Notes under the pieces: generated by a model
The model's input: only the letters and a program-made list of their open reading frames with translations
Database searches by the model: none
What the model was told of the DNA's origin: nothing
Shown here: positions 3,000 to 53,016 of the stretch, piece by piece
Layout: each line of letters opens with the position of its first letter
Position numbering within the stretch: the first letter of the stretch is position 1
Made by a program: the position numbers and the translations under genes
Assembly (NCBI GenBank): GCA_036141575.1
Contig: JAYZXF010000017.1
Span: 78,077-142,076 of the forward strand
DNA from: Pseudomonadota bacterium
GTDB taxonomy: Bacteria; Pseudomonadota; Alphaproteobacteria; UBA2136; JAPKEQ01
Direction of reading: 5' to 3'
Length of the DNA: 64,000 nt

Positions 3000-3419
3000 T
3001 TATTTGCCTCCAGGGTTCAGCAGACCAGTCAGAAAGTTTTCAAAAATTTTCTGTTGTTGGGCCACATAGGCCTGAGCCAGCATGCCGGCCATCACAGACA
3101 TGTTCTTCAGCTGCTGCAGTTGTGCAGAACCGAGGCCATTGGCTTTGACGGTTTTTTCGAAGTCTTCAGCGAACTCGTTCACAGCGGCTTTGGCTTCTTC
3201 AAACATTTCCAGTGGCGAACGCGGACCTTGCGCCAGAGCTTTCATCAGCTCAAGGAAGTCAACATCGTCACGCTTCAGATACTCTTCCAGCAGAGCAATC
3301 AGCTCTTCTGAGGTGGTATTGGCGGCTTCAAATTCGCCTTCGCTACCATGTTCCGTCATGCGGCGGGTTGTCTCTTGAATAGCTTCCAAAAGCTCTTCAT
3401 TTGTGCGGGTATCAGTCAT
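3000..3419 (-). CDS. hypothetical acidic helical protein (139 aa)
   Basis: ATG at 3419 preceded by GGAG. Terminator 2964-2985 directly downstream. Confidence 0.6.
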   Translation of the reverse strand: MTDTRTNEELLEAIQETTRRMTEHGSEGEFEAANTTSEELIALLEEYLKRDDVDFLELMKALAQGPRSPLEMFEEAKAAVNEFAEDFEKTVKANGLGSAQLQQLKNMSVMAGMLAQAYVAQQQKIFENFLTGLLNPGGK

Positions 3420-3449
3420 CAAACTCTCCAGTCAATGGGGTGAGGGAAA

Positions 3450-3474
3450 CAGGCTCTTACTTGTTAAGAGCCTG
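3450..3474 (-). terminator. rho-independent terminator
   Basis: CAGGCTCTTA-cttgt-TAAGAGCCTG. Confidence 0.7.
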
Positions 3475-3481
3475 AACAGAT

Positions 3482-3883
3482 TTAGCCAATGCCGTTGGCT
3501 TCCAGGAAGGCGTCGTAGTATTTGGCGCGCTCTTCAAACAGGGCTTTGGTCAAAATCACAAGCAGCTGCATGGTGCTATTAACCACCTGCAGTTCAGCTT
3601 CGCCAGCTTCGCCTCTGGCCTGCAGTTTTGCTTTTTCTTCTGCATATTCTGGCAGGAGGTATTCCAGCTGTTGCAGAACCTCAAAAGCTTCACCACTGAA
3701 AACGGTTTGTGCAAGGTTCGAGACGGTGGTATTGGGCAGAGCTACATACTCCTGACAAAGTGCAACCAAATTGGCCAGAGGCTCAATTGCGCCAGCATCA
3801 TCGTCGCGTTCTGCAGCAGCCATCATATTGGAGGCTTCCACTTGAATTTTTGCCATCAGCAGTTCAGGGGATTGTTCAGACAT
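3482..3883 (-). CDS. hypothetical acidic helical protein (133 aa)
   Basis: ATG at 3883 preceded by GGAG (spacing about 7). Terminator 3450-3474 downstream. Confidence 0.6.
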   Translation of the reverse strand: MSEQSPELLMAKIQVEASNMMAAAERDDDAGAIEPLANLVALCQEYVALPNTTVSNLAQTVFSGEAFEVLQQLEYLLPEYAEEKAKLQARGEAGEAELQVVNSTMQLLVILTKALFEERAKYYDAFLEANGIG

Positions 3884-3921
3884 AAGAATCTCCATTGTCT
3901 AAAAAAAGGGAAGGGTGATAG

Positions 3922-3950
3922 ATCAAAATCACCCCTGTTGTATACGCCAA
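3922..3950 (-). promoter_or_regulatory. related promoter-like motif TTGGCGTATAC
   Basis: On the minus strand: TTGGCGTATAC (-35 at 3945-3950), 17-nt spacer, TTTGAT (3922-3927). Upstream of 3482-3883. Confidence 0.3.
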
Positions 3951-4029
3951 GGTGTTGCATTGTCAAACTTAAATGGGAAATGAAAAACAAAAAAGCTCCC
4001 CAAATTGGGAAGCTTTGCTTTCGAGTGAT

Positions 4030-4263
4030 TTAGAAGGACTGGCCAATGGCTTTGGAAAGCGTGATGGTGTTTTCAGTCTGCTGCTGGATGAGTGCTGCAG
4101 CCAGCTTGGCTGGTGGCGTTGGTGCAAAGTTCACCATCAGGGCACTGCATTGACGCATAGGCGTAAAAACAAGTTGTTCTTGCGCTTGCCGTGTTACGTT
4201 GGCGTAAGCCTGCGTGTAAGTATGCATGGCTTGAAGAGTACCCAAAGGCGTAAATAGAGTCAT
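4030..4263 (-). CDS. hypothetical small protein (77 aa)
   Basis: ATG with 'gagagg' upstream. Hairpin 3994-4014 right after the stop. Preferred over the overlapping ORFs 3973-4257(+) and 4073-4462(-). Confidence 0.45.
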   Translation of the reverse strand: MTLFTPLGTLQAMHTYTQAYANVTRQAQEQLVFTPMRQCSALMVNFAPTPPAKLAAALIQQQTENTITLSKAIGQSF

Positions 4264-4380
4264 AGAACCTCTCTGTAAAACGGTATGGTGGGTTGTTAGG
4301 AGCGCAGAAAGTAGGGGAAAGCAGGAGATCTGTCAATATATAAAAACAGCCCCCTTGCGAGAGCTGTCTTTGATTTCGAT

Positions 4381-4953
4381 TTAACCGAGGCCTTGGCCTT
4401 CTTCTGGCCAGAGGCGTGCACTGGCGCGGTCGCAGTTGCCAACATGGGCTGCAAGCGGGCAAGAGACACGGTGGGTGTTGGTGTAATCATCACCTTCACC
4501 ATGGGTATATTTCAACGCGTTCCACTCATTATCAGTCAGTTCAAAATCATAAGTTTTCATGAGCTCAAGAATGATACGCTTCTTAATGAATTCCCAATAT
4601 TTTGGAACAACATGTTGAAGCTCTGTATGCCAGTGTGCCACGCGCGGATCAGTAGGGTCTGCAAATTTGAAGATCTTCTCAATGTCATGGAAGAAAAACG
4701 TAACCGCAGCACTGCCTTTGGTAAAAGGCAGTGGACGAATCTGTTCCATGCCGTCATAGGTCACATCGTTAATGCGAAGGCCTTCTGCAATATGGTCTGC
4801 ATAGCCGCCAGGCCAAGCTTGGTGGTTATGGGTAGAGCCTGGAGCAGTATGGAAGAGGTCGTGGAAATCACGGTAAATTTGCAAGAGGACATTCTGGCGC
4901 GGATCATTGATCTGCTGAATGAGCCCTTTAAGCTTTGTGTCTAACAGAGACAT
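4381..4953 (-). CDS. HD-domain phosphohydrolase-like protein
   Basis: 'GGYADHIAEGL' followed by 'FFFHDIEKIFK', the H...HD metal-binding pattern of the HD superfamily. AAGGAG lies 6 nt before the ATG at 4953. Confidence 0.65.
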   Translation of the reverse strand: MSLLDTKLKGLIQQINDPRQNVLLQIYRDFHDLFHTAPGSTHNHQAWPGGYADHIAEGLRINDVTYDGMEQIRPLPFTKGSAAVTFFFHDIEKIFKFADPTDPRVAHWHTELQHVVPKYWEFIKKRIILELMKTYDFELTDNEWNALKYTHGEGDDYTNTHRVSCPLAAHVGNCDRASARLWPEEGQGLG

Positions 4954-5034
4954 AAGCATCTCCTTGTATAAAACGTGTTCAAAGATTGAAGAGTTCTTTT
5001 TTTATATCGTGGCTTTAAACATGTGGCAATGAAA

Positions 5035-5058
5035 AAGCCCCTTTATAGGAAGGGGCTT
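5035..5058 (-). terminator. rho-independent terminator
   Basis: AAGCCCCTT-tatagg-AAGGGGCTT. Confidence 0.75.
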
Positions 5059-5107
5059 TATCTCGATTTAGCAGTACTGCGTATGGTCTCCTAAGGTAAG
5101 GGTGGGG

Positions 5108-5461
5108 TTAGCCGCGGGCCAGCTCAAGGAACGTGCGCATGGCTTCTGCCAGCGGGTTCAAACCAATCAGAGCACCAGGGTTCTCAGTTTTGGTTCTTTC
5201 AATCAGATCCTCAAGGCCTTTCAGGCCTTTTTCGCCGGTTGCCAAGGCATGTGCTGGCATACCAATCATAGTGGCAATCTCTTCAGCGCTCACTTCACCG
5301 CGGACAATCATGTTTTTCACTTCGGAAAACAGGCCAAGGGCGGCTTCTGCAGTTGCAGTGAGCATAGCAAGATTATCGGCTTTGAGTGCTTTACTGGCTT
5401 CACGTACAGCCATTTGGGCTGCACCAAGAAAGTTTTCAGCTTTAGCAAGATTCATATTCAT
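5108..5461 (-). CDS. hypothetical helical protein (117 aa)
   Basis: ATG at 5461 with GGAG upstream. Promoter-like TTGACG-17-TAGGGT at 5516-5544. Terminator 5035-5058. Confidence 0.6.
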   Translation of the reverse strand: MNMNLAKAENFLGAAQMAVREASKALKADNLAMLTATAEAALGLFSEVKNMIVRGEVSAEEIATMIGMPAHALATGEKGLKGLEDLIERTKTENPGALIGLNPLAEAMRTFLELARG

Positions 5462-5576: not shown

Positions 5577-5603
5577 AATACCCAGCCATATAGGCTGGGT
5601 ATT
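5577..5603 (-). terminator. rho-independent terminator after the RbcS-like gene
   Basis: AATACCCAGCC-atata-GGCTGGGTATT. Confidence 0.75.
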
Positions 5604-5636: not shown

Positions 5637-5951
5637 TTAGTTCATTTCCAGTGGAATTTTCACAAGGAAGCTCTGACCGTATGTTTTCTTCTTCGGATCA
5701 AATCCGCTGAGTTTAACGTACGAGTACGGGAAGCGACGGCTGCAAGCATCAACCTGCGTCATCACCCAGCTCGCGCTGACTTCTTTGTGCTCTGGAATTG
5801 GCCAGATTTTCCAGTACACCTCTTCAGGTGTTGGTGCATCTGAGAACTCAATCATTGGCACTTGGCCTTCTGCAAGCATGTTTTGTGCTTGCATGTGCAC
5901 TTGGTTACTCGTCAGAGGCGGTAGGAATGAAAATGTTTCAAAACGTCTCAT
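5637..5951 (-). CDS. RuBisCO small-subunit-like protein (RbcS/CbbS family)
   Basis: 'RRFETFSFLPPL', 'YWKIWPIP', 'YVKLSGFD' and 'SFLV' match hallmark small-subunit motifs. Lies 15 nt downstream of the RbcL-like gene. Terminator 5577-5603. Confidence 0.85.
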   Translation of the reverse strand: MRRFETFSFLPPLTSNQVHMQAQNMLAEGQVPMIEFSDAPTPEEVYWKIWPIPEHKEVSASWVMTQVDACSRRFPYSYVKLSGFDPKKKTYGQSFLVKIPLEMN

Positions 5952-5966
5952 TGTTTTTATCCTTTC

Positions 5967-7670
5967 TTAGTCATCCAAACCTGGACGAGTGTCATCAGTT
6001 ACGGGTTTCAGTGGGGTTACAACTTTTGGCGCTGTTGTTGTTTCTTCAATCTTAGCACCTGTTGCTGCGTCACCTTTCACAACACCAAACAGGAAGGCTC
6101 CTTCGTTCCAGAATTCTAGAGCGGCTTTCAGTTCGCTGTTGTAGCGGGCTGCACGTTGTAGAATTGTACGACCGTCAACACTTAGGTTATGACCTTCACC
6201 ACGGGCTTGTGCAATGGCTTCAATCGCCGTACGGCAAGCTGTTGCACCGCTGCCTAGGCCCCAAGGGTGACCCATTACTGATCCACCACACTGGATGATC
6301 ATGTCATCGCCCATTGCGTCCATCAGGCGAGGGAAGTGCCATGGGTTGTGTCCACCACCCACAGCAGGCCATACAGTGGCACCACCTACAGAGGGTTGGT
6401 CAAACATGATACCTGTTTCAACAGATGTTTTTGGTGCATCTTCAACAAGCATATCAACAATACCTTTCACGTGACGGCGGTTACCCGTATCACCACGCAG
6501 TGGACTACCGATACTTACCATGTCACAACCTGTGAAGCGAAGAAGCTTCGCAATCAGGCCTTCTGTCATTGTTGCGCTCATGAGGCTACGTCCGCCCATG
6601 GCACCAATAATCACATCGTTGTTCTGACACCAGTTCACCATGCTTGCAAGAGCACTCCAGCCGACAGCAGAGCTATCAACAATCATCATGTTGATGCCAA
6701 GCTCTTTTGCATATTCTGCACGAGCTGTCATATCTTCAACTGTTGGGGCACTAATGTTCACAGCGTGGTATTTCACTTCGCCCGTTTCTTGCTGTGCAGC
6801 AAAGGCAGCTTCAGCCACAAAACGGAAGCGACGGCGCCAGCTATTGTCTGGCAGGCTGTGCATCATGGTTGGGTCGGCAGTCATATCTACACCGCCTTTA
6901 AGTGTTTCGTACACCGCACGGCCGTACATCTTAGGTGATAGGCCGTTCATTGGGCGCATTGTGCTACTTAGCAGTGGGCGACCGTACTTGCTGGCAAGGT
7001 CACGCATACCAATCACACCGTATGAAGGTGTTTTAAATGTACGTGCAAGCCCAACAGGAATGCGGGCATCAACAATACGTGCACCTGTAGATGTAATAGG
7101 GGCACTGATCACGCTAATAAGGCTGACCATAGAGCCTGCTTCTACCATTTCTTGTGGGATGATCAGGCTTACGTTAACTGTAGAGCTATCTACGCGCTTT
7201 GTTTCAAGCAGTTTTACTTGTGGCACTGTCTCGTGGTCTACAAGAGAACCTGTCCAGCTTTCCACCCAGTCACCGTTTGCTGCGCTTACAAGAAGGTTAC
7301 CGCATTCGTTTTGGCTGAATGTTGTGTTCTCGTACTGGTAGCTAACAAGGATGTCTTGTTCTGGGTTAAAGCCTTGGTCTTCCTTACGGCGACCACGTGA
7401 GTCTGGCTTTTCATCAGTCGTTGGGGCTGCTACGGCTGCAAATGATGTCGTGCCGCCTGTTAGGCTGTCTAGCGATACACCAAGAACCGTGGCGATTTTA
7501 ACCACGTTATCTAGAGAAGGGCTTACTTGTCCGCCAAGGATGCGTGAGAGCGTTGCCATCGACACACCAGACTGGCGAGACAGGTCAGATGCAGACATGC
7601 CGTTCTTTTCCAAAATCTTTTTTAGAGCCTCAGGTAGGTTGTAAGGGCTCTCTGTTGTTTTCTTTGTCAT
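5967..7670 (-). CDS. XRE-family HTH fused to a RuBisCO large-subunit-like (non-catalytic) domain
   Basis: N-terminal Cro/C1 HTH ('MSASDLSRQSGVSMATLSRILGG'), then collinearity with Form I RbcL ('KYGRPLL', 'YGRAVYETLKGG', 'CGGSVMGHPWG'). Catalytic motifs are replaced, e.g. DFTKDDE becomes DMTADPT at 6867-6896. The ATG at 7670 has 'aaggaaa' upstream. Confidence 0.85.
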   Translation of the reverse strand: MTKKTTESPYNLPEALKKILEKNGMSASDLSRQSGVSMATLSRILGGQVSPSLDNVVKIATVLGVSLDSLTGGTTSFAAVAAPTTDEKPDSRGRRKEDQGFNPEQDILVSYQYENTTFSQNECGNLLVSAANGDWVESWTGSLVDHETVPQVKLLETKRVDSSTVNVSLIIPQEMVEAGSMVSLISVISAPITSTGARIVDARIPVGLARTFKTPSYGVIGMRDLASKYGRPLLSSTMRPMNGLSPKMYGRAVYETLKGGVDMTADPTMMHSLPDNSWRRRFRFVAEAAFAAQQETGEVKYHAVNISAPTVEDMTARAEYAKELGINMMIVDSSAVGWSALASMVNWCQNNDVIIGAMGGRSLMSATMTEGLIAKLLRFTGCDMVSIGSPLRGDTGNRRHVKGIVDMLVEDAPKTSVETGIMFDQPSVGGATVWPAVGGGHNPWHFPRLMDAMGDDMIIQCGGSVMGHPWGLGSGATACRTAIEAIAQARGEGHNLSVDGRTILQRAARYNSELKAALEFWNEGAFLFGVVKGDAATGAKIEETTTAPKVVTPLKPVTDDTRPGLDD

Positions 7671-7840
7671 TAAATTTTCCTTATATGGTAGCGAGCTACC
7701 ATTACGGTTATTCATTTACCTATTAAATGTAGTATCGCACAGGCTGTGCTTTTGCACAAATGGAAATATTGCAGATGTGGAAGAATTTCAAGGGCTGAAA
7801 TCAAAAAAATATCAAAAAAATAAAGGTGACTTTGTTTTTG

Positions 7841-7868
7841 TTGACAAATTAAAGGTGGATTGTATGCT
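7841..7868 (+). promoter_or_regulatory. sigma70-like promoter for 7917-8381
   Basis: TTGACA (7841-7846), 16-nt spacer, TATGCT (7863-7868). Confidence 0.45.
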
Positions 7869-7916: not shown

Positions 7917-8381
7917 ATGGTATTCAGCTTTCTTGAGCCGTTGCTGCCTTATGTTGGTTTGGGGTTTCAAATCTTTGGAATGTGGATTGCTGCCTCGTGG
8001 CTTATGGAGCAGGCCTTCCTTAAAGTAAACGCTTTTTATGAGGCCCGGCAGCCTGAAAGGGACAAAGAGCGCTACCGGAAAAGCTTAGACCATTTTGCCT
8101 GCTATGATGAAGACATTGTTTCTGGAAATGGTGAACACTACAACCGGTTAACCATTGTGGAGCAGATTACAAAAACGCCTCGTAAGCAGAATTCGCGTTT
8201 TAAGCCTGTTGTAACAGAGGTGCGCTATACGTTTCTGACCCTGGATGAATCCGAATGGTTTTGGGAGGAGACGATGGAAAAAATGACGGCAGAGTCAAAA
8301 CCATACTCTAAAGAGCGTGTTGAACGCATGCTCGCGCGTTATAAAGCTGGCAAAATTAGACATGTTGATGCTGCAAAATAA
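7917..8381 (+). CDS. hypothetical protein with N-terminal TM helix (154 aa)
   Basis: ATG preceded by 'aggag'. Sigma70-like promoter at 7841-7868. Confidence 0.6.
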   Translation: MVFSFLEPLLPYVGLGFQIFGMWIAASWLMEQAFLKVNAFYEARQPERDKERYRKSLDHFACYDEDIVSGNGEHYNRLTIVEQITKTPRKQNSRFKPVVTEVRYTFLTLDESEWFWEETMEKMTAESKPYSKERVERMLARYKAGKIRHVDAAK

Positions 8382-8510
8382 ACAGTATATGGCCCCCCTT
8401 TACAGGGCGGTCTTTTTCTTTTGTGGTTGACAGGTCTGGGAAATCCAGTATATTCGCCCATTCTGAAATACTTATTGAGTACCTGTTTACCTTTTTATTT
8501 GTCACCTGCT

Positions 8511-8657
8511 ATGGAGGATAACTTGCTAACACCTGTTGCATTTTGCGTTGGACTGGCTTTTGGATATTTCGTGCTTCCGCTTTTGCTTGCCGCTCGGGCT
8601 TTGCCTGACTCAAGCCTAAGCCTGATGCCCGAAAAGGACGAAGAAGGCACGCCTTGA
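8511..8657 (+). CDS. possible small membrane protein (48 aa)
   Basis: First ATG inside ORF 8421-8657. One hydrophobic helix. No clear RBS. Terminator about 8685-8706. Confidence 0.25.
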   Translation: MEDNLLTPVAFCVGLAFGYFVLPLLLAARALPDSSLSLMPEKDEEGTP

Positions 8658-8769
8658 TGCCTGTATGTGATTGAATCGAAATGGAAGTCGCCCTGTTGGG
8701 CGGCTTTTTTATTTGTGTTACGCTCTATAAGAAATCAGGTTGGTTATAAATGACTAAGGGAATATCTTA

Positions 8770-9582
8770 ATGAGACACACAGTATGGATTGCGTCGTTGG
8801 CGCTTTTGTGTGCAGTAAATGCGCAAGCTTCAGAAGGAATTGCAAGGCAAATTCAGTCTCTTAAAACAGCAATGGATGGGTTTGCAGCAACTGCAAGAGC
8901 GCAAATTGCGTCCAATACAGCGAGTATTACTGAAAACGTAAGAATTATTGACTCTTTTGAGACCTGTGCTGAAAGCGGGATGATGTATGCCCCTGATGAT
9001 GTGACAGCGAATGCAGATGGCTGTAAGCGCGTCACCTCAACACAAGCGCTCAATGAAATTGATGTGTCAAGCCAGCTTGTGGCAACAGGCCGGTGGCTAC
9101 ACCCTTATAACTTTAGTGAGCATTCATCAAATGGGTCTCCATCAAAACGTGGCCGTTCTTATGCGCAGATTTATCGTATTAATGATCCTGATAATTATAA
9201 CAACTACCTGATTTCTGGTAATCTTTTTGGTGGTGGTAGTCGTTCTCATGATGAGGGTCAGTTCAGTTGTTGGAATGCTAATACTTATGTAAAGATTGGT
9301 AGTGGTTGGGTTTCTACAAACGGTGATTCTATTAAAATTGAACAGCTTGCCAATGTGTCTAAAACGCGTGTGGCAGGCCATGTTTATAATGGCACATTCC
9401 AAAACCAAATTGCGATTGTAAAGCGTACATCTCATAGCTGTTATAATAACGGAGGGGATTTAAATATGGGAATGAAGGTTAATTACATTACGTATCACAA
9501 TGGTATGAATGCACGTGCATCTTATCATGATAGTGACTCGCGAGCTTCAACACTGCGTGTGACAAACATTATTGGTTTTTAA
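8770..9582 (+). CDS. secreted coiled-coil protein, 'EGxxRQxxSLK' family (F1)
   Basis: Signal peptide ...AVNAQA, then 'SEGIARQIQSLKTAMDGF', a Cys loop 'CAESGMMYAP...DGC', and a C-terminal domain paralogous to 12170-13015. Confidence 0.75.
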   Translation: MRHTVWIASLALLCAVNAQASEGIARQIQSLKTAMDGFAATARAQIASNTASITENVRIIDSFETCAESGMMYAPDDVTANADGCKRVTSTQALNEIDVSSQLVATGRWLHPYNFSEHSSNGSPSKRGRSYAQIYRINDPDNYNNYLISGNLFGGGSRSHDEGQFSCWNANTYVKIGSGWVSTNGDSIKIEQLANVSKTRVAGHVYNGTFQNQIAIVKRTSHSCYNNGGDLNMGMKVNYITYHNGMNARASYHDSDSRASTLRVTNIIGF

Positions 9583-9633
9583 ATTAATGGAAGTTCCTAT
9601 AAATAAGCATGAAATGGGAGGTTTATAGATTTC

Positions 9634-10206
9634 ATGAGTAAAGTATTTAAAGGGAGTGCAGCTGTTGGCGCTTTAATGGCGGCGACAAGTGCTGCTGCAC
9701 ATGACCACGACTTTCCGAACTTGAATTACGATGCCAATGCACCTGTGCCTGATGGCATGAGCGAGGTGTGCTCTCCAAGTGATCTGGAATACTTGCAGTG
9801 GCAAGCCAATGATTTTGTGGTTGATAATCAAGTTCAGTTTCAGCCTAAAGATGATGCGGCACAGGGCTATATGCAAGCTTATGCCGAGCTCCATGAAGGG
9901 GACAATGCATTTGAGGCTTATAAAGGTTATAGTGATCGTGCTTTTGAGCACTATAAAGAGTTTGATAATGTTGCTAAGCAGGTTGAGCGCGGCATGGTCA
10001 GCTATGATGAAGTAGATCAACAGATTCTTGGTCGTATTAATGAGCTTGGTCACCTTGAGCAGTTTTATATTAATTCTATTCAGGCTGAGAAGATTGCAGC
10101 AAACTTTGAAATGCAGTACGGCGAGGGGTCTTTTGCCCGTTACGCTGGTATGCAGGTTGAAGTGGAGCTTGGAGAGCTCAACTGCGATATTGAAGCTGAG
10201 CGCTAA
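9634..10206 (+). CDS. secreted acidic hypothetical protein (190 aa)
   Basis: Signal-peptide-like N-terminus 'GSAAVGALMAATSAAA'. Terminator 10224-10245. Confidence 0.6.
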   Translation: MSKVFKGSAAVGALMAATSAAAHDHDFPNLNYDANAPVPDGMSEVCSPSDLEYLQWQANDFVVDNQVQFQPKDDAAQGYMQAYAELHEGDNAFEAYKGYSDRAFEHYKEFDNVAKQVERGMVSYDEVDQQILGRINELGHLEQFYINSIQAEKIAANFEMQYGEGSFARYAGMQVEVELGELNCDIEAER

Positions 10207-10223
10207 AGGATTTATCTAAAAAA

Positions 10224-10245
10224 AAGCCACCCCGAAGGGTGGCTT
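10224..10245. terminator. bidirectional terminator
   Basis: AAGCCACCC-cgaa-GGGTGGCTT with A-run and T-run flanks. Confidence 0.8.
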
Positions 10246-10275
10246 TCTTTATTTACGTCGATTTGCTTTGGCGTT

Positions 10276-10851
10276 TTAGTCGTTGTTGCCGAATGGGTTG
10301 ACGCCGCCATCTTCACCAGTCTCGAAAGTCTGGCTGGTTGCGGCGCTGACCACCGGAGCACAGACGCTGCCGGGCTCTTTTTGCTTCGGGTCGACCTTGG
10401 CCGGGAAGTTCATCAGGCCGTAGACCAGGTTGCCGGGGAATTTCTCCAGCGAGTTGGTGTAGGCGACGCACTTGTCAATCAGCAGTTTCTGCGCATTGGC
10501 GAAGGTGGTCCGGCCGATTTCGATCTGATCCTGAATGGTTTTGTACAGGGTCATGTCGACTTCGGGGTTGTCTTCGGTCAGGGCCAGCAGCAGGGCGCTG
10601 GCACCGCCATCACCGTAGCGGTTCTGGAGTGCACCAGAAATCACTTCTGCGACCGCGTCCTTGTAGGCATCGGCCACGCCAGCGGATTCGGTCACCGACT
10701 GAGCGAACGCGTTGTATTTGATTTTGTTTTCATCGTAGGTGCCCATGATGCCATTCTCATGGCTGATGCCGGTGTTGTACGTGGAAATGGCCACGCCACC
10801 TGCCAGAGCCAGAGGGACTGCGACGATTGCTGCGATAATAAGACCTTTCAT
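10276..10851 (-). CDS. membrane-anchored protein, distant LemA-like
   Basis: ATG at 10851 (MKGLIIAAIV...) with GGAG 7 nt upstream. N-terminal TM helix. The C-terminal 'RTTFANAQKLLIDKCVAYTNSLEKFPGNL' resembles the LemA tail pattern (weak). GC-rich. Confidence 0.55.
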   Translation of the reverse strand: MKGLIIAAIVAVPLALAGGVAISTYNTGISHENGIMGTYDENKIKYNAFAQSVTESAGVADAYKDAVAEVISGALQNRYGDGGASALLLALTEDNPEVDMTLYKTIQDQIEIGRTTFANAQKLLIDKCVAYTNSLEKFPGNLVYGLMNFPAKVDPKQKEPGSVCAPVVSAATSQTFETGEDGGVNPFGNND

Positions 10852-10942
10852 GATGATTCTCCATGATGTGAAAGGTTGAGAAGGAAGGGTGAAAGCTTGG
10901 CCGGAAAACCGCCCAAGCAAGTATTATATTTCCTGTGTGCTC

Positions 10943-11998
10943 CTAGAGGAAACGCACGTCGTTGCGATGGAAGTAACGGGTTAGACCGAGACTTGCGCCC
11001 ATCCCAACAAGGAAAAGCATGACCAGAGCCCATGTTGGTGGGTTGATCTGGGATTTGAGGTAGGCAAACTGTTTCATCTGTGGGCGTACAAAGTGTGCGT
11101 CCACCTCTTCGGAGATGGCGTGCACAATTGCATGCGGGTCAGAAATAGTGCCAATGTTTTGAAGTTCATCACGCAGATACACTGCCATTTCTTCGTTGCC
11201 GTATCCGCCAGCCCAAGTGAGCACATGGGCCCAATTGATAGTGTCGGTTGCGTCAACACTCAGAATAACCACCACATCATTCTTGTTGAGACCATCCCAT
11301 GCGGCTTCAACTTTGAAGACATATTCACGGGATTTCTCTGTGGTGATGATCAGGTTCACGTTGGCCTGTTTACTTGGGCCAAGGTGAATCAGTTCCTGAT
11401 TCAGCAGATCTTGCCAGTGGTCAGCATCTTTCAAGCTGAAGCCTGAAGTCAGCACCCGGTGTGCACGGTAGTAGTCGAACACGCGTGGGTACTCAGGCAC
11501 GTCGGCCAGATGCTCATAGTCCAGCATTTGCGTTTTGTAGAGGCTGCCGTTGGCGGCCTGTACGTAGTTATCATAGGTGTGCTCAGTTGCAGCAGGTTCA
11601 CCAATAACCACTTCCGTGAAACGGGGTGGCTCTTTGGTTCCCTGACGGTTGATACGCCGAATGTTGAAGTCGCCAACATTGGTGTAAACACGCCAGTCAT
11701 AGTCGTGAGAGTGCTCATAGCATGTTTGGCAGGTCTGTTTACCGTCTTTGTCGGTGACACAATTGCATTGGTAGCTGTGTTCGCAGGAAACGCGAACACG
11801 CTTTTTGTCTGCAATTGAGCCGTTCCAAATTTCGGTATCAGCCATCATGCCTTTTTCGGTCAGCTTGTAGCCGCCAAAAACCAGCGCTGTCACGAGAACG
11901 AGCTGCATGAGGATTTCTTGCCAGTTCAGGTCATACTTCAATGCTTTTGCAATGAGAGGTGTGAGAAGGGGCAAGAGAAGAAGCCATGCAAGATACAT
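10943..11998 (-). CDS. membrane protein with Cys-rich extracytoplasmic region (351 aa)
   Basis: AAGGAG RBS. N- and C-terminal TM helices. Cys cluster 'SCEHSYQCNCVTDKDGKQTCQTCYEH'. Confidence 0.65.
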   Translation of the reverse strand: MYLAWLLLLPLLTPLIAKALKYDLNWQEILMQLVLVTALVFGGYKLTEKGMMADTEIWNGSIADKKRVRVSCEHSYQCNCVTDKDGKQTCQTCYEHSHDYDWRVYTNVGDFNIRRINRQGTKEPPRFTEVVIGEPAATEHTYDNYVQAANGSLYKTQMLDYEHLADVPEYPRVFDYYRAHRVLTSGFSLKDADHWQDLLNQELIHLGPSKQANVNLIITTEKSREYVFKVEAAWDGLNKNDVVVILSVDATDTINWAHVLTWAGGYGNEEMAVYLRDELQNIGTISDPHAIVHAISEEVDAHFVRPQMKQFAYLKSQINPPTWALVMLFLVGMGASLGLTRYFHRNDVRFL

Positions 11999-12169
11999 GT
12001 GTTTTCTCCTTAAAATGTACGAAAGATTACAGTAGTGATGAAATTGTGATCATCCCTTTAATGAAATTCAAGGTTTTGGGTGTTTTTTTTAGGAGATATG
12101 AGCTTGTGTGTTAACCTATAAGAGAAAGCAGGGTTATAAAAAAGAGGGGTCCCTTACAAAGTGAGGCAT

Positions 12170-19257: not shown

Positions 19258-20031
19258 ATGGCATACCACATTACCATCTTCACACAAGATAACACCAGCA
19301 GAGGCGGGCGTCATTTTAAGATCCGTAAACCTTTGTTTTGGATATGCTTAATGCTGTTTTTGGTGCTGCCATCTCTGGCGCATTACACAATTATTTTCCA
19401 CATTATGCCAACGTACGCCGTTAAAAAGGCGCAGGGTATGGAAGAAGAGATTACAGGCCTAGCCAGTGGTGTATATACTCTGGAAGAAGAGAACACTCTT
19501 CTAAAGGCGAGGCTCAAGAGCATTACAACAGAGCTTGAAGAAGAGCAGGCTGTACGTAGTGAGCTTGCAGCCCGCATTGCCATTGCTGAAAATGCGCGTT
19601 CATCTTTTGCCAATAAAGCCCAGCAGCTTGAGCAAGAAGTGATTGATCTACGTGCCAGCACCAAGTTTTACGAAGATATTCTAAACCCATCAGAAACAGT
19701 GGGTGAGCTTCAATGTTATAACATTACCACCAGTCTGAATAAGGGAACGCTTAAGTATGGCGTCAATTTCCTCCATCAAAACCAGAACAATACAACGTCT
19801 AAAAAATATAAAATTGTTGTCAATGTGATGAGTGGTGTGAAAGCATCAGATCTTGAAAATATGGAAATTCAAGACGGCGATGATGTGAAAGAAGTGAAGT
19901 TCAAGAAGTCTTACACAATGAAGGGCAGTCTCGATGTGACTTTGCCTGATAATAAGCTCCGCATGCTTGATGTGCGTGCTTACAAAGATGGGACAAATGA
20001 GCTTGTCGGTCATTGCTGGAAAGCTTTCTAG
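19258..20031 (+). CDS. membrane-anchored coiled-coil protein
   Basis: First ATG in ORF 19240-20031. One TM helix ('LFWICLMLFLVLPSLA') then a heptad-rich segment. The start is uncertain. Confidence 0.55.
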   Translation: MAYHITIFTQDNTSRGGRHFKIRKPLFWICLMLFLVLPSLAHYTIIFHIMPTYAVKKAQGMEEEITGLASGVYTLEEENTLLKARLKSITTELEEEQAVRSELAARIAIAENARSSFANKAQQLEQEVIDLRASTKFYEDILNPSETVGELQCYNITTSLNKGTLKYGVNFLHQNQNNTTSKKYKIVVNVMSGVKASDLENMEIQDGDDVKEVKFKKSYTMKGSLDVTLPDNKLRMLDVRAYKDGTNELVGHCWKAF

Positions 20032-23321: not shown

Positions 23322-24377
23322 ATGGATAAAGCAGCTCTTAAAACCACCGCAGATAATCTGGTGAAATCAGGAAAAGGTATTCTTGCCGCTGATGAAAGCA
23401 CAGGCACAGCTGGTAAGCGCCTTGCGAGCATTGGTATGGAAAACACAGAAGATAACCGTCGTGCAATGCGCGATCTATTCTTTAGCACAAGCGGTGCAGC
23501 TGAATACATTAGTGGTGTAATTCTATTTGATGAGACTCTTCGTCAAGAACGCCTAGACGGCAAAATGACATTTGCAACAGATATGATGGCGCATGGTGTC
23601 ATTCCAGGTATTAAAGTTGACCAAGGTCTAGAAGATGCTTTTAAGCCGGGTGAAAAAGTAACAAACGGCCTAGATGGTTTACCTGAGCGTTTGGCTGAGT
23701 ACTTTGAGCTGGGTGCACGTTTTGCCAAGTGGCGCAGCGTATTTAGCATTACAGATACGCTGCCAAGTGCTGAGTGTGTTGAAGAAAACTGTGACCGCCT
23801 CGCGCGCTACGCAAAAATGTGCCAGCAGGCGGGTATTGTGCCAATCGTTGAGCCTGAAATGCTGATGGATGCCGCAGATGCTGTTCATACAATTGACCAA
23901 GCTTACGCAGCAACAACACGTGTGCATAAAGCACTCTTTGCTAAACTTAAAGAGCATGGTGTTTACCTTGAAGGTGTTCTGCTAAAGCCGAGCATGGTCA
24001 TTGAAGGTCATGTGTGCGACGTGTGCGCGACAACGCAGCAAGTGGCAGAGATGACTGTTAAATGCCTGAAGGAAAGCGTGCCTGCAGACGTTGCTGGTGT
24101 TGTGTTCCTATCTGGTGGTCAAACAGATATCCAAGCAACTGAGCACCTGAACTTGATGAACAAACTTGATGGTGACCTACCTTGGCCACTCAGCTTCTCT
24201 TACGGACGTGCACTTCAAGGTGCGGCTCTACAAGCTTGGGGCGGACGTGATGATGCTGTTGAAAACGCGCGTGCAACATTCCTGCACCGCGCTAAAATGA
24301 ACAGCCTAGCCACAAAAGGCCTGTACACTGCAGATAAAGAAGACGGCCTTTGCCTTGGCAAATGTGCGTGCGCTTAA
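23322..24377 (+). CDS. fba: fructose-bisphosphate aldolase, class I
   Basis: 'ILAADESTGTAGKRL', 'IVPIVEPE', 'LEGVLLKPSMV' (Schiff-base Lys context), 'FLSGGQ' and 'SFSYGRALQ' are collinear with class I aldolases. Confidence 0.95.
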   Translation: MDKAALKTTADNLVKSGKGILAADESTGTAGKRLASIGMENTEDNRRAMRDLFFSTSGAAEYISGVILFDETLRQERLDGKMTFATDMMAHGVIPGIKVDQGLEDAFKPGEKVTNGLDGLPERLAEYFELGARFAKWRSVFSITDTLPSAECVEENCDRLARYAKMCQQAGIVPIVEPEMLMDAADAVHTIDQAYAATTRVHKALFAKLKEHGVYLEGVLLKPSMVIEGHVCDVCATTQQVAEMTVKCLKESVPADVAGVVFLSGGQTDIQATEHLNLMNKLDGDLPWPLSFSYGRALQGAALQAWGGRDDAVENARATFLHRAKMNSLATKGLYTADKEDGLCLGKCACA

Positions 24378-35085: not shown

Positions 35086-35676
35086 TTATTGCTCTTCTTT
35101 TTCAGCCTTATCAAGATCAGGATTATAATTTGTAATACTAAACAGCTTTTTAGCAAGCTCAGGAGAGCAGGGCACAACATCACCAGATGCGATAAACTTC
35201 TTCAGTTTATCCTTGGCAATTTCAAGTGTTGGTGAGTTAGAAATCAGTTTTGTGAAGACCATGTTCTGCAGCTCGTTGAAGCGCTTTGTCATCACGTGAC
35301 CCGCATACTCAAGCAGTTTAATAGCGATCATTGGGTGTTCGCTACGAATCTTCAGGAAGTCATCATACTCAAGCATAAAGTACTTGGCTTGACGGCTGAC
35401 CAGAATGGTTGCGTTACGCTCTTGTTGAAGTAGAAGGTTACCTTCTCCAAGCAGAAGAGGGGCTTCAAGGCTGGCAACTTTAAGGGCCGCAAGGCGGTTA
35501 GAATATTGAACTTTACGGTAAATTTCATAGTTACCACTAATCAGAAAATAGAGGTCACGATCTGTCTGACCATATTCGATCAGAATAGACCCCACTGGGG
35601 CGGTCTTCGCTTTAAAGTACGGCTTTAGAATTTGTCCTTCTTCTGGAGTAAGGCCTGGTATGAGCTTTTCAAGCAT
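35086..35676 (-). CDS. cyclic-nucleotide-binding domain protein
   Basis: cNMP-binding beta-roll pattern 'ILIEYGQTDRDLYFLISGNYEIY...LLGEGNLL...RNATILV'. No obvious HTH. Confidence 0.7.
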   Translation of the reverse strand: MLEKLIPGLTPEEGQILKPYFKAKTAPVGSILIEYGQTDRDLYFLISGNYEIYRKVQYSNRLAALKVASLEAPLLLGEGNLLLQQERNATILVSRQAKYFMLEYDDFLKIRSEHPMIAIKLLEYAGHVMTKRFNELQNMVFTKLISNSPTLEIAKDKLKKFIASGDVVPCSPELAKKLFSITNYNPDLDKAEKEEQ

Positions 35677-35886
35677 CTTGTTTTTCTATCCCGTATTCAA
35701 TTAACCTGCCCATGATATTATGTTTCTTTCTCCAAATATCCAAGTAAAAATTTTTAACCCTAAAGAGTGGTTGTGCCCTATATGCAACGGATTTTTGCGG
35801 TTTTCGTTGTCTAAGTGCTTGCCAAATATCAGACTTCGCTGCATATTGTTCTGACAAATAATACGAAATGAGTACTCTATTTTATT

Positions 35887-36465
35887 ATGACTGAAGATGT
35901 AATGACAATCCGCACCGAGCGGACACCTAACCCTAACAGCCTGAAATACAAGCTAGGTAAACTCATTTTGCCGGGCGGTAGCGCGAACTTTCCAACACCT
36001 GGAACAGCAGAACGCTCACCTCTTGCAAAGCGTTTGTTTACAGTGTCTGGCGTAACAGGTGTGTTTATTGGGAGTGATTTCTTCACCATTACAAAAGATG
36101 AAGAGTTTCTATGGCCGGCCATTAATGAAGGGATTGCTCCAGTCCTTGAAGAGTTCTTTGAGAGTGGGGACCCTGTACTGCAAGGTTCAGCGGAAGCACC
36201 AAAGCTAGAAGATATTGGCGATGGCGACGCGGACCCTGTTGTGATTTCTAAAATTAAAGAGCTGATTGATACGCAAGTGCGTCCTGCTGTGGCACAAGAC
36301 GGTGGTGACATTGTTTACCGTGGTTATGATGAAGGTATTGTTTACCTAGAAATGCATGGCGCATGTAGTGGTTGCCCAAGCTCTAGCGTAACGCTTAAGC
36401 AGGGGATTGAAACCATGCTTCAGCATCACTTGCCTGACGATGTGAAGGAAGTACGAGCAATTTAA
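35887..36465 (+). CDS. NFU1/NifU-type Fe-S cluster scaffold protein
   Basis: Nfu_N-like 'IRTERTPNPNSLKY' and NifU C-terminal domain 'VRPAVAQDGGDIVY...MHGACSGCPSSSVTLKQGIE'. Confidence 0.88.
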   Translation: MTEDVMTIRTERTPNPNSLKYKLGKLILPGGSANFPTPGTAERSPLAKRLFTVSGVTGVFIGSDFFTITKDEEFLWPAINEGIAPVLEEFFESGDPVLQGSAEAPKLEDIGDGDADPVVISKIKELIDTQVRPAVAQDGGDIVYRGYDEGIVYLEMHGACSGCPSSSVTLKQGIETMLQHHLPDDVKEVRAI

Positions 36466-52951: not shown

Positions 52952-53016
52952 ACAACTGACAGGCGGAAACATTAATAAAACCGCTTATAAGAACTTAAGG
53001 AAAGTAAAACATTAAC

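What the first reader, a model, noticed from the sequence alone, without database searches (positions are those of the whole stretch)
5637..7670. XRE-HTH fused to a catalytically dead, Form-I-like RuBisCO large subunit, in one operon with a conserved RbcS-like small subunit
CDS 5967-7670 (-) opens with a textbook Cro/C1-type HTH, about aa 12-66 counted from the ATG at 7670 ('LPEALKKILEKNGMSASDLSRQSGVSMATLSRILGGQVSPSLDNVVKIATVLGVSL'). A Pro/Ala/charged linker follows. The rest is a full-length body collinear with Form I RbcL ('DILVSYQY', 'KYGRPLL', 'YGRAVYETLKGG', 'QQETGEVK', 'QCGGSVMGHPWG'). Every canonical catalytic motif I can align is replaced. TIKPK becomes TMRPM (K175/K177). GGLDFTKDDE becomes GGVDMTADPT at 6867-6896, losing the carbamylated K201 and the Mg ligands D203/E204. 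HIHRAMH becomes IIGAMGG (H294/R295/H298). GDHIHSGT becomes CDMVSIGS (H327). Fifteen nt downstream, CDS 5637-5951 is a clear small subunit ('RRFETFSFLPPL', 'YWKIWPIP', 'YVKLSGFD', 'SFLV'). Known RuBisCO-like proteins (Form IV) have no small subunit, and I know of no RbcL fused to a DNA-binding domain. No prk or other cbb genes lie nearby. An L/S pair that keeps its assembly features but not its chemistry, tethered to an HTH, suggests a repurposed particle, for example a metabolite-sensing regulator or a DNA-organising scaffold.
Basis: partly seen in the sequence, partly recalled or inferred. Interest (0 to 1): 0.92.

Follow-up and report, generated by a model that had tools for sequence, protein, structure and literature searches.

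The report
DNA-binding, carboxylase-dead RuBisCO with small subunit
An uncultured group of proteobacteria carries a Form I RuBisCO large subunit that has lost its CO2-fixing residues, is fused to a DNA-binding domain and still sits next to a small-subunit gene, so it most likely works as a self-regulating transcription factor, which I found described nowhere.

Summary
CDS 5967-7670 (-) encodes an XRE-type HTH (Pfam HTH_3, E 4e-13), a disordered linker and a full RbcL-like body (RuBisCO_large, E 3e-62; model matches Form I RbcL, target-normalised TM 0.85-0.91). CDS 5637-5951 (-) is a genuine RbcS homologue (E 1e-25).

The fusion is not an artefact. About 88 fused homologues exist in MAGs labelled Alphaproteobacteria or Proteobacteria. 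RbcS lies directly downstream in 27 of 29 informative loci. dN/dS is about 0.05 for both genes.

In all 89 members the carbamate lysine K201, Mg ligands D203/E204, K177, H294, H327 and K334 are replaced. T173, probably R295, and G380/G381/G403 (G404 in 81 of 89) are kept. K175 is always Arg. Family-specific invariant residues cluster at active-site positions. The pocket looks remodelled, not decayed.

New here: a 14-bp palindrome, TTSCATATATGSAA, lies just upstream of the gene in essentially every locus, with three copies at 7677-7782 in the window. This points to autoregulation.

Best reading (confidence about 0.55): a one-component XRE repressor whose dimerisation and effector-binding module is a carboxylase-dead Form I RuBisCO stabilised by RbcS. 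The ligand, the oligomeric state and DNA binding itself are untested.

The parts
5967..7670 (-). HTH-RbcL fusion gene (567 aa; NCBI MEC9292304.1)
   Evidence: ORF and sequence. Pfam HTH_3 plus RuBisCO_large. About 88 homologues share the architecture. The identical protein occurs on 6 contigs. dN/dS against L009 is 0.053.
7464..7625 (-). XRE/Cro-C1 type helix-turn-helix domain (aa 16-69)
   Evidence: Pfam HTH_3, E 4.2e-13, above the gathering score. AF2 pLDDT is about 90. The recognition-helix region SGVSxASLSRILSG is nearly invariant across the family. dN/dS is 0.018.
7377..7451 (-). Flexible Ala/Thr/Pro/Ser-rich linker (aa 74-98)
   Evidence: AF2 pLDDT is below 50. Across the family the linker is 12-35 aa long, median 23. 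dN/dS is 0.25, the most relaxed segment.
6084..7376 (-). RbcL-like body, both domains (aa 99-529); fold kept, carboxylase residues lost
   Evidence: Best PDB sequence hit is 7qsw, E 6e-88. The best 50 Foldseek PDB matches listed are all Form I-type RbcL chains (natural or reconstructed ancestor), target-normalised TM 0.85-0.91. Residue table over 89 members. dN/dS is 0.045.
6867..6896 (-). Former carbamate/Mg2+ motif: GGLDFTKDDE has become GGVDMTADPT
   Evidence: In the family K201 is C or A (never K, 0 of 89), D203 is P in 88 of 89, and E204 is T in 82 of 89.
5970..6083 (-). Disordered, variable C-terminal tail (aa 530-567)
   Evidence: AF2 pLDDT is below 50. Tail length in the family is 13-62 aa.
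5637..5951 (-). RbcS-like small subunit gene (104 aa), 15 nt after the L stop codon
   Evidence: Pfam RuBisCO_small, E 1e-25. Gapless 99-aa alignment to cyanobacterial RbcS. Present directly downstream in 27 of 29 informative loci. Hallmark motifs are conserved. dN/dS is 0.054.
5577..5603 (-). Intrinsic-terminator-like hairpin that ends the two-gene operon
   Evidence: 11-bp stem (6 G-C pairs) followed by a T-run.
7769..7782 (.). Operator-like palindrome, copy 3 (TTCCACATCTGCAA on the - strand)
   Evidence: Two mismatches to TTSCATATATGSAA. The site is conserved in L009 and L011.
7752..7765 (.). Operator-like palindrome, copy 2 (TTCCATTTGTGCAA on the - strand), 17 bp centre-to-centre from copy 3
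   Evidence: Tandem copies 17-21 bp apart recur in 10 of the 28 loci analysed.
7677..7690 (.). Operator-like palindrome, copy 1 (TACCATATAAGGAA on the - strand), overlapping the Shine-Dalgarno sequence
   Evidence: It overlaps the perfect palindrome ATGGTAGC-GA-GCTACCAT at 7685-7702.

Best explanation
The operon encodes a one-component, self-regulating transcription factor built from a Form I RuBisCO.

Shown here:
- The XRE HTH, linker and RbcL-like body form one conserved polypeptide.
- The residues needed for carbamylation, Mg2+ binding and carboxylation are gone in every member.
- A true RbcS homologue is co-transcribed in nearly all lineages.
- Both genes are under strong purifying selection.
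- A 14-bp palindrome (TTSCATATATGSAA) sits within about 120 nt upstream of the gene in essentially every lineage, often as two copies about two helical turns apart.

Inferred:
- The RbcL-like body still forms the antiparallel L2 dimer. That would present two N-terminal HTH domains with two-fold symmetry to one palindrome, as the C-terminal domain does for the 434 and lambda repressors.
- Higher-order assembly through RbcS (up to L8S8) would bring several HTH pairs together and allow cooperative binding to tandem operators, repressing the operon's own promoter and possibly other genes.
- The remodelled former active site keeps the phosphate-gripping backbone and T173/R295 and has gained invariant Arg, His, Ser and Cys residues. 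It would bind an anionic, probably phosphorylated, metabolite. Closure around that ligand would alter HTH geometry or availability.
- RbcS is retained because this L depends on it for solubility or assembly (entrenchment), not for catalysis.
For: - Architecture and family.
- Loss of K201, D203, E204, K177, H294, H327 and K334 in 89 of 89 members. K175 is always Arg. T173 (87 of 89), R295, G380, G381 and G403 are retained, and G404 is Gly in 81 of 89.
- Family-specific invariant residues fall at active-site or loop-6 positions (K175R, D203P, N207H, H327S, T330S, V331P, A340R, S379G, I382H, H383N, F402C).
- Purifying selection, dN/dS 0.02-0.05 for HTH, body and S.
- RbcS adjacent in 27 of 29 informative loci, with its conserved motifs intact.
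- Operator. A site with <=2 mismatches occurs upstream in 21 of 28 loci, and <=3 mismatches in 28 of 28, against 0.2-0.5% of control windows at <=2 mismatches. Of 34 sites in about 430 kb of loci, 30 lie just upstream of the L gene. The window has 5 sites where 1.24 are expected, three of them within 106 bp upstream of the start. An unbiased 6-mer test ranks ATATAT, TTCCAT and TTGCAT first. Tandem spacing is 17-21 bp.
- General precedent that XRE regulators are autoregulatory dimers binding palindromes: abstract of PMC12565409, listed.
- Fold retained, linker disordered.
Against: - No experiment of any kind exists. DNA binding, oligomeric state and ligand are all inferred.
- The consensus was first seen by eye in the same sequences used to score it. 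The 6-mer test and the control windows reduce this circularity but do not remove it.
- The outer TTG...CAA resembles CRP/FNR-type boxes, so another regulator could own the site.
- No regulon beyond the operon itself was found. Neighbouring genes are housekeeping synteny only.
- One subclade (L034, L035) has no RbcS gene within the flanks held, about 8 kb upstream and 5.6-8 kb downstream, so S may be dispensable.
- The invariant His and Cys gained in the pocket could mean new catalysis rather than sensing.
- No sigma-70 consensus promoter was detected on the minus strand near the sites.
Confidence: 0.55

Rival explanations
1. Bifunctional enzyme-repressor, in the manner of BirA, PutA or NadR. 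The remodelled pocket catalyses a new, metal-independent or differently metallated reaction on a phosphorylated substrate, and the HTH couples expression to that activity.
For: Pocket positions are invariant rather than decayed, including newly gained H271, H441, C461, S386, R239 and R399. Selection on the body is strong. The RuBisCO superfamily has repeatedly evolved new chemistry in the Form IV RLPs (established knowledge). Small enzyme genes (Nudix-like, deaminase-like, VOC-like) are inserted between L and S in some lineages.
Against: All three Mg2+/carbamate ligands and the general bases K175 (as Lys), H294 and K334 are absent in 89 of 89 members. To my knowledge the characterised RLP chemistries rely on that Mg2+/carbamate site (from memory, not tested here). 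No conserved metabolic neighbours point to a pathway. The inserted genes are heterogeneous and were identified only by eye.
Confidence: 0.17
2. Multivalent DNA-organising or scaffold particle. An L8S8-type hexadecamer carrying eight HTH domains bridges or wraps DNA, or scaffolds other proteins, with no small-molecule sensing. The upstream sites only provide feedback control of its abundance.
For: RbcS, the subunit that defines L8S8 assemblies, is retained. Tandem and distant operator copies occur (17 and 75 bp apart in the window). The linkers are flexible.
Against: Sites are essentially confined to the gene's own upstream region in the DNA examined, which does not fit a nucleoid-wide binder. 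Strong conservation of pocket residues would be unexplained. The oligomeric state is unknown.
Confidence: 0.15
3. The palindrome belongs to a different regulator, for example a CRP/FNR-type protein recognising TTG-N8-CAA. The fused HTH would then act in protein-protein contacts, as in RodZ, or bind other DNA.
For: The outer TTG/CAA of many copies resembles CRP/FNR boxes (my own comparison, not tested). XRE-type HTHs that bind proteins are known (RodZ; established knowledge).
Against: Half of the copies read TTCC...GGAA rather than TTGC...GCAA. The motif travels with this gene across highly diverged genomes and is almost absent elsewhere in about 430 kb. The recognition helix is nearly invariant, matching an invariant operator. 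Autoregulation is typical of the XRE family (abstract of PMC12565409, listed).
Confidence: 0.08
4. Artefact or decaying pseudogene: a mis-assembled or frameshifted join of an HTH gene and a degenerating rbcLS operon.
For: None beyond the unusual architecture.
Against: The same architecture occurs in about 88 clusters at 42-99% identity from many samples. The identical protein occurs on 6 independent contigs. dN/dS is about 0.05. The AF2 model is confident.
Confidence: 0.01

Closest known systems
Form I RuBisCO (L8S8), for example Synechococcus PCC 6301 (1rbl/1rsc) and the reconstructed ancestor of small-subunit-bearing Form I (7qsw)
   Same: Collinear RbcL fold, 34-38% identity, target-normalised TM 0.85-0.91. 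A cognate RbcS is encoded immediately downstream, with a gapless alignment to cyanobacterial RbcS. The family groups with Form I in the tree.
   Different: There is no carbamate lysine, no Mg2+ ligands and none of the catalytic K177, H294, H327 or K334; K175 is Arg. An N-terminal HTH and linker replace the first 25 or so RbcL residues. No CBB genes lie nearby. The NCBIfam Form I score (304) is below its cut-off of 438.
Form IV RuBisCO-like proteins (MtnW/YkrW enolase, OiaX and others)
   Same: RuBisCO-fold proteins that do not carboxylate RuBP and have altered active-site residues.
   Different: As far as I know RLPs have no small subunit, are not fused to DNA-binding domains and generally keep the K201/Mg2+ site. 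This family scores far better against Form I (304 bits) than against the MtnW (102) or OiaX (67) models, and it clusters with Form I rather than with the RLP-like outgroups.
Enzyme-derived effector domains in one-component regulators (MocR/GabR, ROK repressors NagC/Mlc, SorC/CggR, RpiR-SIS)
   Same: An HTH fused to a domain descended from a metabolic enzyme, which has lost or reduced catalysis and acts as the ligand-binding and dimerisation module. Autoregulation through palindromic operators.
   Different: The sensor here would be a RuBisCO large subunit, which I found described nowhere. It also comes with a separately encoded partner subunit (RbcS), which is unusual for such regulators. This is an analogy only; there is no homology.
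Phage 434 and lambda cI-type repressors (HTH_3 N-terminal domain plus C-terminal oligomerisation domain)
   Same: The same HTH superfamily (Pfam HTH_3, weak Phage_CI_repr; NCBIfam RstR-like at E 8e-9). 14-bp palindromic operators with AT-rich centres. Several tandem operators in the regulator's own control region.
   Different: The C-terminal module is RuBisCO instead of a LexA/S24-like domain. The locus is chromosomal and vertically inherited, with no phage context.
CcmM SSUL domains of beta-carboxysomes
   Same: The RbcS fold is kept for a non-catalytic, assembly-type role.
   Different: CcmM SSUL domains are repeats inside a scaffold protein that binds active RuBisCO. Here a free-standing RbcS accompanies an inactive L. 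The NCBIfam CcmM hit is insignificant (E 0.044).

Membership tests
Form I RuBisCO (functional carboxylase) | RbcL fold and family HMM | tested here: inconclusive
   Pfam RuBisCO_large passes (211 bits against a cut-off of 30), and the fold matches at target-normalised TM 0.85-0.91. The NCBIfam Form I subfamily model scores 303.9, below its curated cut-off of 438.
Form I RuBisCO (functional carboxylase) | Carbamylatable K201 with Mg2+ ligands D203 and E204 | tested here: not met
   K201 is A in the window protein and C or A in the family, never K in 89 members. D203 is P in 88 of 89. E204 is T in 82 of 89.
Form I RuBisCO (functional carboxylase) | Catalytic K175, K177, H294, H327, K334, and E60/N123 from the partner subunit | tested here: not met
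   Replaced by R, M, M, S, G, and S/P in the window protein, and replaced throughout the family.
Form I RuBisCO (functional carboxylase) | Cognate small subunit encoded alongside | tested here: met
   RbcS homologue 15 nt downstream. Adjacent in 27 of 29 informative loci.
Form I RuBisCO (functional carboxylase) | L8S8 quaternary structure | not testable with these tools
   Only monomer prediction was available, and no coordinates are returned.
Form I RuBisCO (functional carboxylase) | Calvin-cycle gene context (prk, cbb genes, carboxysome genes) | tested here: not met
   No such Pfam families among the called genes within +/-10 kb, nor among the 30 window ORFs scanned across. Related loci show housekeeping synteny only. 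Whole genomes were not examined.
Form IV RuBisCO-like proteins | Phylogenetic and HMM affinity to RLP clades | tested here: not met
   NCBIfam scores: MtnW 102 and 82 bits, OiaX 67, against Form I 304. The family groups with Form I in 81 of 100 bootstraps.
Form IV RuBisCO-like proteins | Homo-oligomer without a small subunit | tested here: not met
   A conserved RbcS gene sits in the operon.
XRE/Cro-C1 family one-component transcription regulators | HTH_3-type DNA-binding domain | tested here: met
   Pfam HTH_3 at 49.5 bits against a cut-off of 23. HTH_26 and HTH_31 also score above their cut-offs.
XRE/Cro-C1 family one-component transcription regulators | Palindromic operator in its own control region (autoregulation) | tested here: met
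   In silico only. The TTSCATATATGSAA palindrome is enriched upstream in 28 of 28 loci, with three copies in the window.
XRE/Cro-C1 family one-component transcription regulators | Demonstrated sequence-specific DNA binding and an effect on transcription | not testable with these tools
   Needs EMSA, footprinting or reporter assays.
XRE/Cro-C1 family one-component transcription regulators | C-terminal dimerisation or effector-binding domain | tested here: inconclusive
   The RbcL-like body has a fold that forms obligate dimers in all known RuBisCOs (established knowledge). Pocket residues are under constraint. Dimerisation and ligand binding were not tested.
RuBisCO small subunit (RbcS) | PF00101 match and hallmark motifs | tested here: met
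   90 bits against a cut-off of 27. RFETFSFLPPL, YW..WP, C..R.PY..R and SF motifs are conserved across 27 family members. Alignment to PDB RbcS at E 2e-21.

The most novel reading that the evidence does not exclude
The L and S proteins still assemble into a Form I-type L8S8 hexadecamer. It would display four two-fold-symmetric pairs of HTH domains around its equator. This would be a RuBisCO particle converted into a large, multivalent, metabolite-gated DNA-binding machine that binds tandem or distant operators cooperatively and loops or wraps DNA. The small subunit would be retained purely by structural entrenchment. It would be the first non-enzymatic, gene-regulatory use of the complete RuBisCO holoenzyme architecture.
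Probability: 0.25. Interest if true: 0.95.

Novelty: new variant of a known kind. Interest (0 to 1): 0.8.

Why it matters
RuBisCO is among the most studied of all enzymes. Its known non-carboxylating relatives (Form IV RLPs) are still enzymes, lack small subunits and branch away from Form I. This family would be the first lineage that descends from the small-subunit-bearing Form I stock, has shed the carboxylation chemistry, keeps its small subunit and has acquired a DNA-binding domain.

It offers three things:
- A natural experiment on why the small subunit is retained: entrenchment versus catalytic benefit.
- A new type of effector or oligomerisation module for one-component regulators.
- A warning for metagenomic carbon-fixation surveys. 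JGI annotates these proteins as 'ribulose-bisphosphate carboxylase large chain', so heterotrophs could be miscounted as CO2 fixers.

The predicted operator makes the hypothesis directly testable in vitro without culturing the organism.

Tried and rejected
- **Phage or plasmid origin.** blastn and tblastn against the phage collection found nothing. GC content is uniform at about 45-47%. The locus is chromosomal, near rpsI and rplM.
- **Function from neighbours.** The neighbours conserved across 30 loci are proS, lolCDE and dnaE upstream, glmM, ftsH and tilS downstream, and efp and an inositol-monophosphatase-like gene in another subclade. These names were assigned from the sequences by eye, not by HMM. 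This is lineage synteny, not a functional operon.
- **An RbcX-like chaperone between L and S, as in cyanobacteria.** Rejected. The intervening ORFs in some loci are heterogeneous: Nudix-like, deaminase-like, VOC-like and a membrane protein.
ATGGTAGC-GA-GCTACCAT overlaps operator copy 1. GCACAGCCTGTGC is not conserved in L009 or L011.
- **Structured RNA in the window.** No Rfam match at gathering threshold.
- **A regulon within the window.** The only other sites with <=2 mismatches are at 19853, inside an ORF, and at 35774, intergenic between a cNMP-binding-domain gene and an nfu gene. That number is expected by chance.
- **Literature.** Six full-text searches and four paper look-ups found no description of an HTH-RbcL fusion or of a non-catalytic Form I with a small subunit. 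Subscription-only papers are not covered.
- **Taxonomy finer than 'Alphaproteobacteria/Pseudomonadota bacterium'.** Not obtainable from record titles or cluster names.
- **Modelling of the L-S or L2 interface.** Not attempted. Only single-chain prediction without coordinates is available.
Full report
**1. Observation**

CDS 5967-7670 (-) encodes 567 aa. An AAGGA Shine-Dalgarno lies 7 nt before ATG 7670. Orthologues of about 92% identity start at the same MTKKTT, so the longer ORF from 7715 is not the real start. CDS 5637-5951 (-) encodes 104 aa and follows after a 15-nt spacer with its own AAAGGA. An 11-bp-stem terminator-like hairpin with a T-run at 5603-5577 closes a two-gene operon.

Pfam gives HTH_3 (aa 16-69, E 4e-13) plus RuBisCO_large (aa 219-521, E 3e-62) for the first protein and RuBisCO_small (E 1e-25) for the second. 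The RuBisCO_large_N model does not reach E <= 1 in this protein. PDB alignments nevertheless run from about aa 105 to 530 against residues of about 30 to 467 of Form I RbcL.

An AF2 model built on 36 family sequences has mean pLDDT 84. It shows a confident HTH (aa 8-73), a disordered linker (74-98), a confident body (99-529) and a disordered tail (530-567). Foldseek matches Form I RbcL at target-normalised TM 0.85-0.91 and about 2.1 A rmsd.

**2. It is a real, conserved family, not an artefact**

The identical protein is encoded on six contigs from different samples. One is a 1.26-Mb chromosome contig of MAG GCA_035092365.1, near rpsI and rplM. NCBI lists it as MEC9292304.1, 'RuBisCO large subunit C-terminal-like domain-containing protein [Pseudomonadota bacterium]'.

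A search of 5.8 billion proteins returned about 88 clusters with the same HTH-plus-RuBisCO architecture at 42-99% identity. Scores then drop sharply to ordinary RbcL at 35-38% identity. An exhaustive HMMER scan of 1.84 billion representatives shows the same gap: 564-370 bits for five family representatives, then 275 bits for canonical Form I.

Thirty species-representative genomes carry the gene, all of them MAGs. Most are titled Alphaproteobacteria or Proteobacteria bacterium; a few carry what look like automatic labels such as Magnetococcales or Pseudomonadaceae. They come from marine, pond, groundwater, sludge and hospital-sink samples.

GC content around the locus is unremarkable, and nothing matches phage records. 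Against the orthologue in L009 (dS about 1), dN/dS is 0.053 for L and 0.054 for S. Within L it is 0.018 for the HTH, 0.25 for the linker and 0.045 for the body.

**3. The small subunit**

By tblastn and a family HMM, an RbcS-like ORF lies directly downstream of L in 27 loci. In two more loci the contig ends first. Two loci of one subclade (L034, L035) have none within the flanks held, about 8 kb upstream and 5.6-8 kb downstream.

The window's S aligns without a gap over 99 residues to cyanobacterial RbcS (6lrr, 1rbl; E about 2e-21). Across the family the best-conserved segments are RFETFSFLPPL, YW..WP, C..R.PY..R and SF..K(T)P. These are the classical RbcS hallmark motifs. From memory of Form I structures, they include the residues that contact L. 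I did not test that.

In a few lineages an unrelated small gene sits between L and S: Nudix-like, deaminase-like, VOC-like or a membrane protein. None resembles RbcX.

**4. Active site**

I aligned 89 family members with Form IA and IC RbcL sequences from the same search and used spinach numbering.

| Position | State in the family |
|---|---|
| K201 | C or A; never K in 89 members |
| D203 | P in 88 of 89 |
| E204 | T in 82 of 89 |
| K175 | R in 89 of 89 |
| K177 | M, L or I |
| H294 | M or L |
| H327 | S in 89 of 89 |
| K334 | G in 81 of 89 |
| E60 | N, Q or S |
| N123 | A or S |

Without the carbamate and the Mg2+ ligands, carboxylation and oxygenation are not possible. The Mg-dependent enolisation used by RLPs also becomes implausible.

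Several positions are retained:
- T173 in 87 of 89 members.
- W66, D202, G380, G381 and G403. G404 is Gly in 81 of 89.
- An invariant Arg (R361). MAFFT aligns it with R295 after a two-residue insertion. HMMER puts it at H298. Either way an Arg persists at the end of strand beta-5.

Eighteen positions are invariant within the family but differ from Form I (the printed numbers need +4). Many are former active-site or loop-6 positions: K175R, D203P, N207H, H327S, T330S, V331P, A340R, S379G, I382H, H383N and F402C. The pocket has therefore been rebuilt and then frozen. That is the signature of a specific binding site, or of new chemistry, and not of decay.

**5. Relationship to known forms**

- NCBIfam scores are Form I 304 bits, Form III 180, MtnW-type RLP 102 and 82, Form II 71 and OiaX 67. 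The Form I to Form III ratio of 1.7 resembles a genuine Form I (1.9). Form III-like outgroups give about 1.0.
- All of the best 60 PDB sequence hits listed are RuBisCO large chains that crystallise with a small subunit (Form I and reconstructed Form I-type ancestors). The top hit is the reconstructed ancestor of small-subunit-bearing Form I (7qsw, 299 bits). Cyanobacterial IB follows at about 293, then IA at 250-268 and red-type at 197-245.
- In an NJ tree of 70 sequences and 397 columns, the family is monophyletic (100 of 100 bootstraps). The sampled Form I sequences (IA plus IC-like) are monophyletic (100 of 100). The two are sisters in 81 of 100, and the family never nests inside either Form I subgroup.

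There are caveats. NJ is a simple method, the family sits on a long stem, and IB, ID, I', I'' and I-alpha were not sampled. Together with the RbcS partner, the data indicate descent from the small-subunit-bearing Form I stock, near its base. This is not Form IV.

**6. A conserved operator (new)**

The HTH recognition region (SGVSxASLSRILSGQxNPSF) is almost invariant across the family, so one DNA target is expected. In the roughly 150 nt upstream of the L start codon, a 14-bp palindrome recurs with consensus TTSCATATATGSAA.

- The best site within 200 nt upstream has <=2 mismatches in 21 of 28 loci and <=3 in all 28. That includes three perfect matches.
- At <=2 mismatches only 0.5% of shuffled sequences and 0.2% of 1,983 other 203-nt windows from the same loci qualify.
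- Of 34 sites with <=2 mismatches in about 430 kb of loci, 30 lie immediately upstream of the true L start.
- An unbiased 6-mer presence test compared these regions with the upstream regions of 277 other genes. It ranks ATATAT (p 7e-7), TTCCAT (5e-6) and TTGCAT (8e-6) first.
- In the 64-kb window there are five sites where 1.24 are expected, and none of 100 shuffles reaches five. Three cluster at 7677-7690, 7752-7765 and 7769-7782.

In the window, copies 2 and 3 are 17 bp apart centre to centre. Copy 1 lies 75 bp further on and overlaps the Shine-Dalgarno.

About half of the loci have two or more copies. Adjacent copies 17-21 bp apart, roughly two helical turns, occur in 10 of the 28 loci analysed. 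XRE-family regulators are typically autoregulatory dimers on palindromes (abstract of PMC12565409, listed). The 14-bp layout with an AT-rich centre recalls 434-type operators (my own knowledge).

**7. Mechanism proposed**

Sections 1-6 above are shown. What follows is inferred.

All known RuBisCO-fold proteins are built from antiparallel L2 dimers. As I recall Form I structures, the N-termini of the two chains emerge on the same outer face, related by the dimer two-fold axis. A 12-35-residue flexible linker would let the two HTHs sit on one palindrome.

The RuBisCO body would then play the role of the C-terminal dimerisation domain of the 434 and lambda repressors. If S still drives (L2)4S8 assembly, several HTH pairs would be held together. 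That would explain tandem operators two turns apart through cooperative binding.

The rebuilt pocket retains the phosphate-binding backbone glycines, T173 and R295, and has gained Arg, His, Ser and Cys residues. It would bind an anionic, probably phosphorylated, effector. In RuBisCO, ligand binding orders loop 6, the C-terminal tail and the N-terminal segment. The same closure could be transmitted to the adjoining linker and HTH.

S may be retained because L became dependent on it for solubility or assembly. That dependence was reconstructed experimentally for early Form I by Schulz et al. 2022 (Science 378:155), which I know of only from memory and from the reference list seen. I put 0.55 on this overall reading.

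**8. Rivals**

- A bifunctional enzyme-repressor with new chemistry (0.17). The invariant His and Cys gained in the pocket keep this alive.
- A non-sensing multivalent DNA or scaffold particle (0.15).
- The palindrome belongs to another regulator and the HTH does something else (0.08).
- Artefact or pseudogene (0.01), refuted.

**9. Context gives no pathway clue**

The neighbours conserved across loci are proS, lolCDE, dnaE, glmM, ftsH, tilS, efp and an inositol-monophosphatase-like gene. I assigned these names from the sequences by eye, not by HMM. They reflect vertical inheritance at a fixed chromosomal position in one lineage.

The immediate neighbours in the window have no Pfam hits. No prk, cbb or carboxysome families appear within +/-10 kb or among the 30 window ORFs scanned across. 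Whether these genomes carry a real RuBisCO elsewhere could not be checked.

**10. Novelty**

Six full-text searches and four paper look-ups found no description of an RbcL fused to a DNA-binding domain, or of a non-catalytic Form I-type L with its own S. The look-ups included recent superfamily-wide surveys. Databases carry the proteins under automatic names, including 'ribulose-bisphosphate carboxylase large chain' at JGI.

In kind, it is a one-component XRE regulator with an enzyme-derived module. That principle is known from MocR/GabR, ROK, SorC and RpiR regulators. The module, a Form I RuBisCO with its small subunit, is unprecedented as far as I could find. I therefore rate it a new variant of a known kind, of high interest to RuBisCO and regulation specialists alike. 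The L8S8 DNA-binding particle is the more radical reading, and my evidence does not exclude it.

Noticed in passing
P0180, P0212, P0229, P0214 (distant hits): Other RuBisCO-fold fusion proteins exist in metagenomes: TIR_2 + RuBisCO (P0180, 583 aa), IF-2B/MtnA-like isomerase + RuBisCO (P0212, 742 aa), RuBisCO + APH-type phosphotransferase (P0229, 1265 aa), and AAA_25 + partial RuBisCO_large (P0214). Domains were checked with Pfam. The TIR fusion hints at a defence or signalling role.
   Followed up: partly
L018 9683-10081; L028 9692-10096; L022 9592-10086; L025 9657-10022; L019 2174-2710: In some lineages a small unrelated gene is inserted between HTH-rbcL and rbcS: Nudix-like, CMP/dCMP-deaminase-like, VOC/glyoxalase-like or a membrane protein. 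The assignments were made by eye from motifs and were not HMM-tested. None is RbcX-like.
   Followed up: partly
L034 and L035 (subclade of P0083/P0086, MAGs labelled Magnetococcales MED694 and UBA2136): This deep subclade of the family has the HTH-RbcL gene and the upstream operator but no RbcS-like ORF within the flanks held, about 8 kb upstream and 5.6-8 kb downstream. L035 also has an operator-like site just downstream of the L gene, at 9687.
   Followed up: partly
window 35774-35787: An operator-like site, TGCCCTATATGCAA (2 mismatches), lies in the intergenic region between a cNMP-binding-domain gene (35086-35676, -) and an Nfu/NifU Fe-S scaffold gene (35887-36465, +). About one such site per window is expected by chance.
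   Followed up: partly
window 50849-57291 (+): A two-partner secretion pair: a ShlB/FhaC-type POTRA/Omp85 transporter (700 aa) followed by a 1424-aa exoprotein with a TPS domain.
   Followed up: no
window 44105-45106 (-): A 333-aa protein with Hint/intein-like domains (Hom_end_hint, PT-HINT).
   Followed up: no
window 3000-5461 and 7917-12000: Nearly all immediate neighbours of the operon are ORFs with no Pfam match, apart from a weak LemA hit. More widely, many called genes in this MAG region have no family assignment.
   Followed up: no
window 7800-7821: A perfect tandem direct repeat, ATCAAAAAAAT x2, lies in the divergent intergenic region. It is next to a sigma-70-like promoter match on the + strand (TTGACA-16-TATGCT, 7841-7868) that faces ORF 7917-8381.
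   Followed up: no
window 23322-24377 (+): A class I fructose-bisphosphate aldolase gene (Pfam Glycolytic, E 3e-126) lies about 16 kb from the operon. It is the only sugar-bisphosphate enzyme seen in the window. No link to the operon is evident.
   Followed up: no
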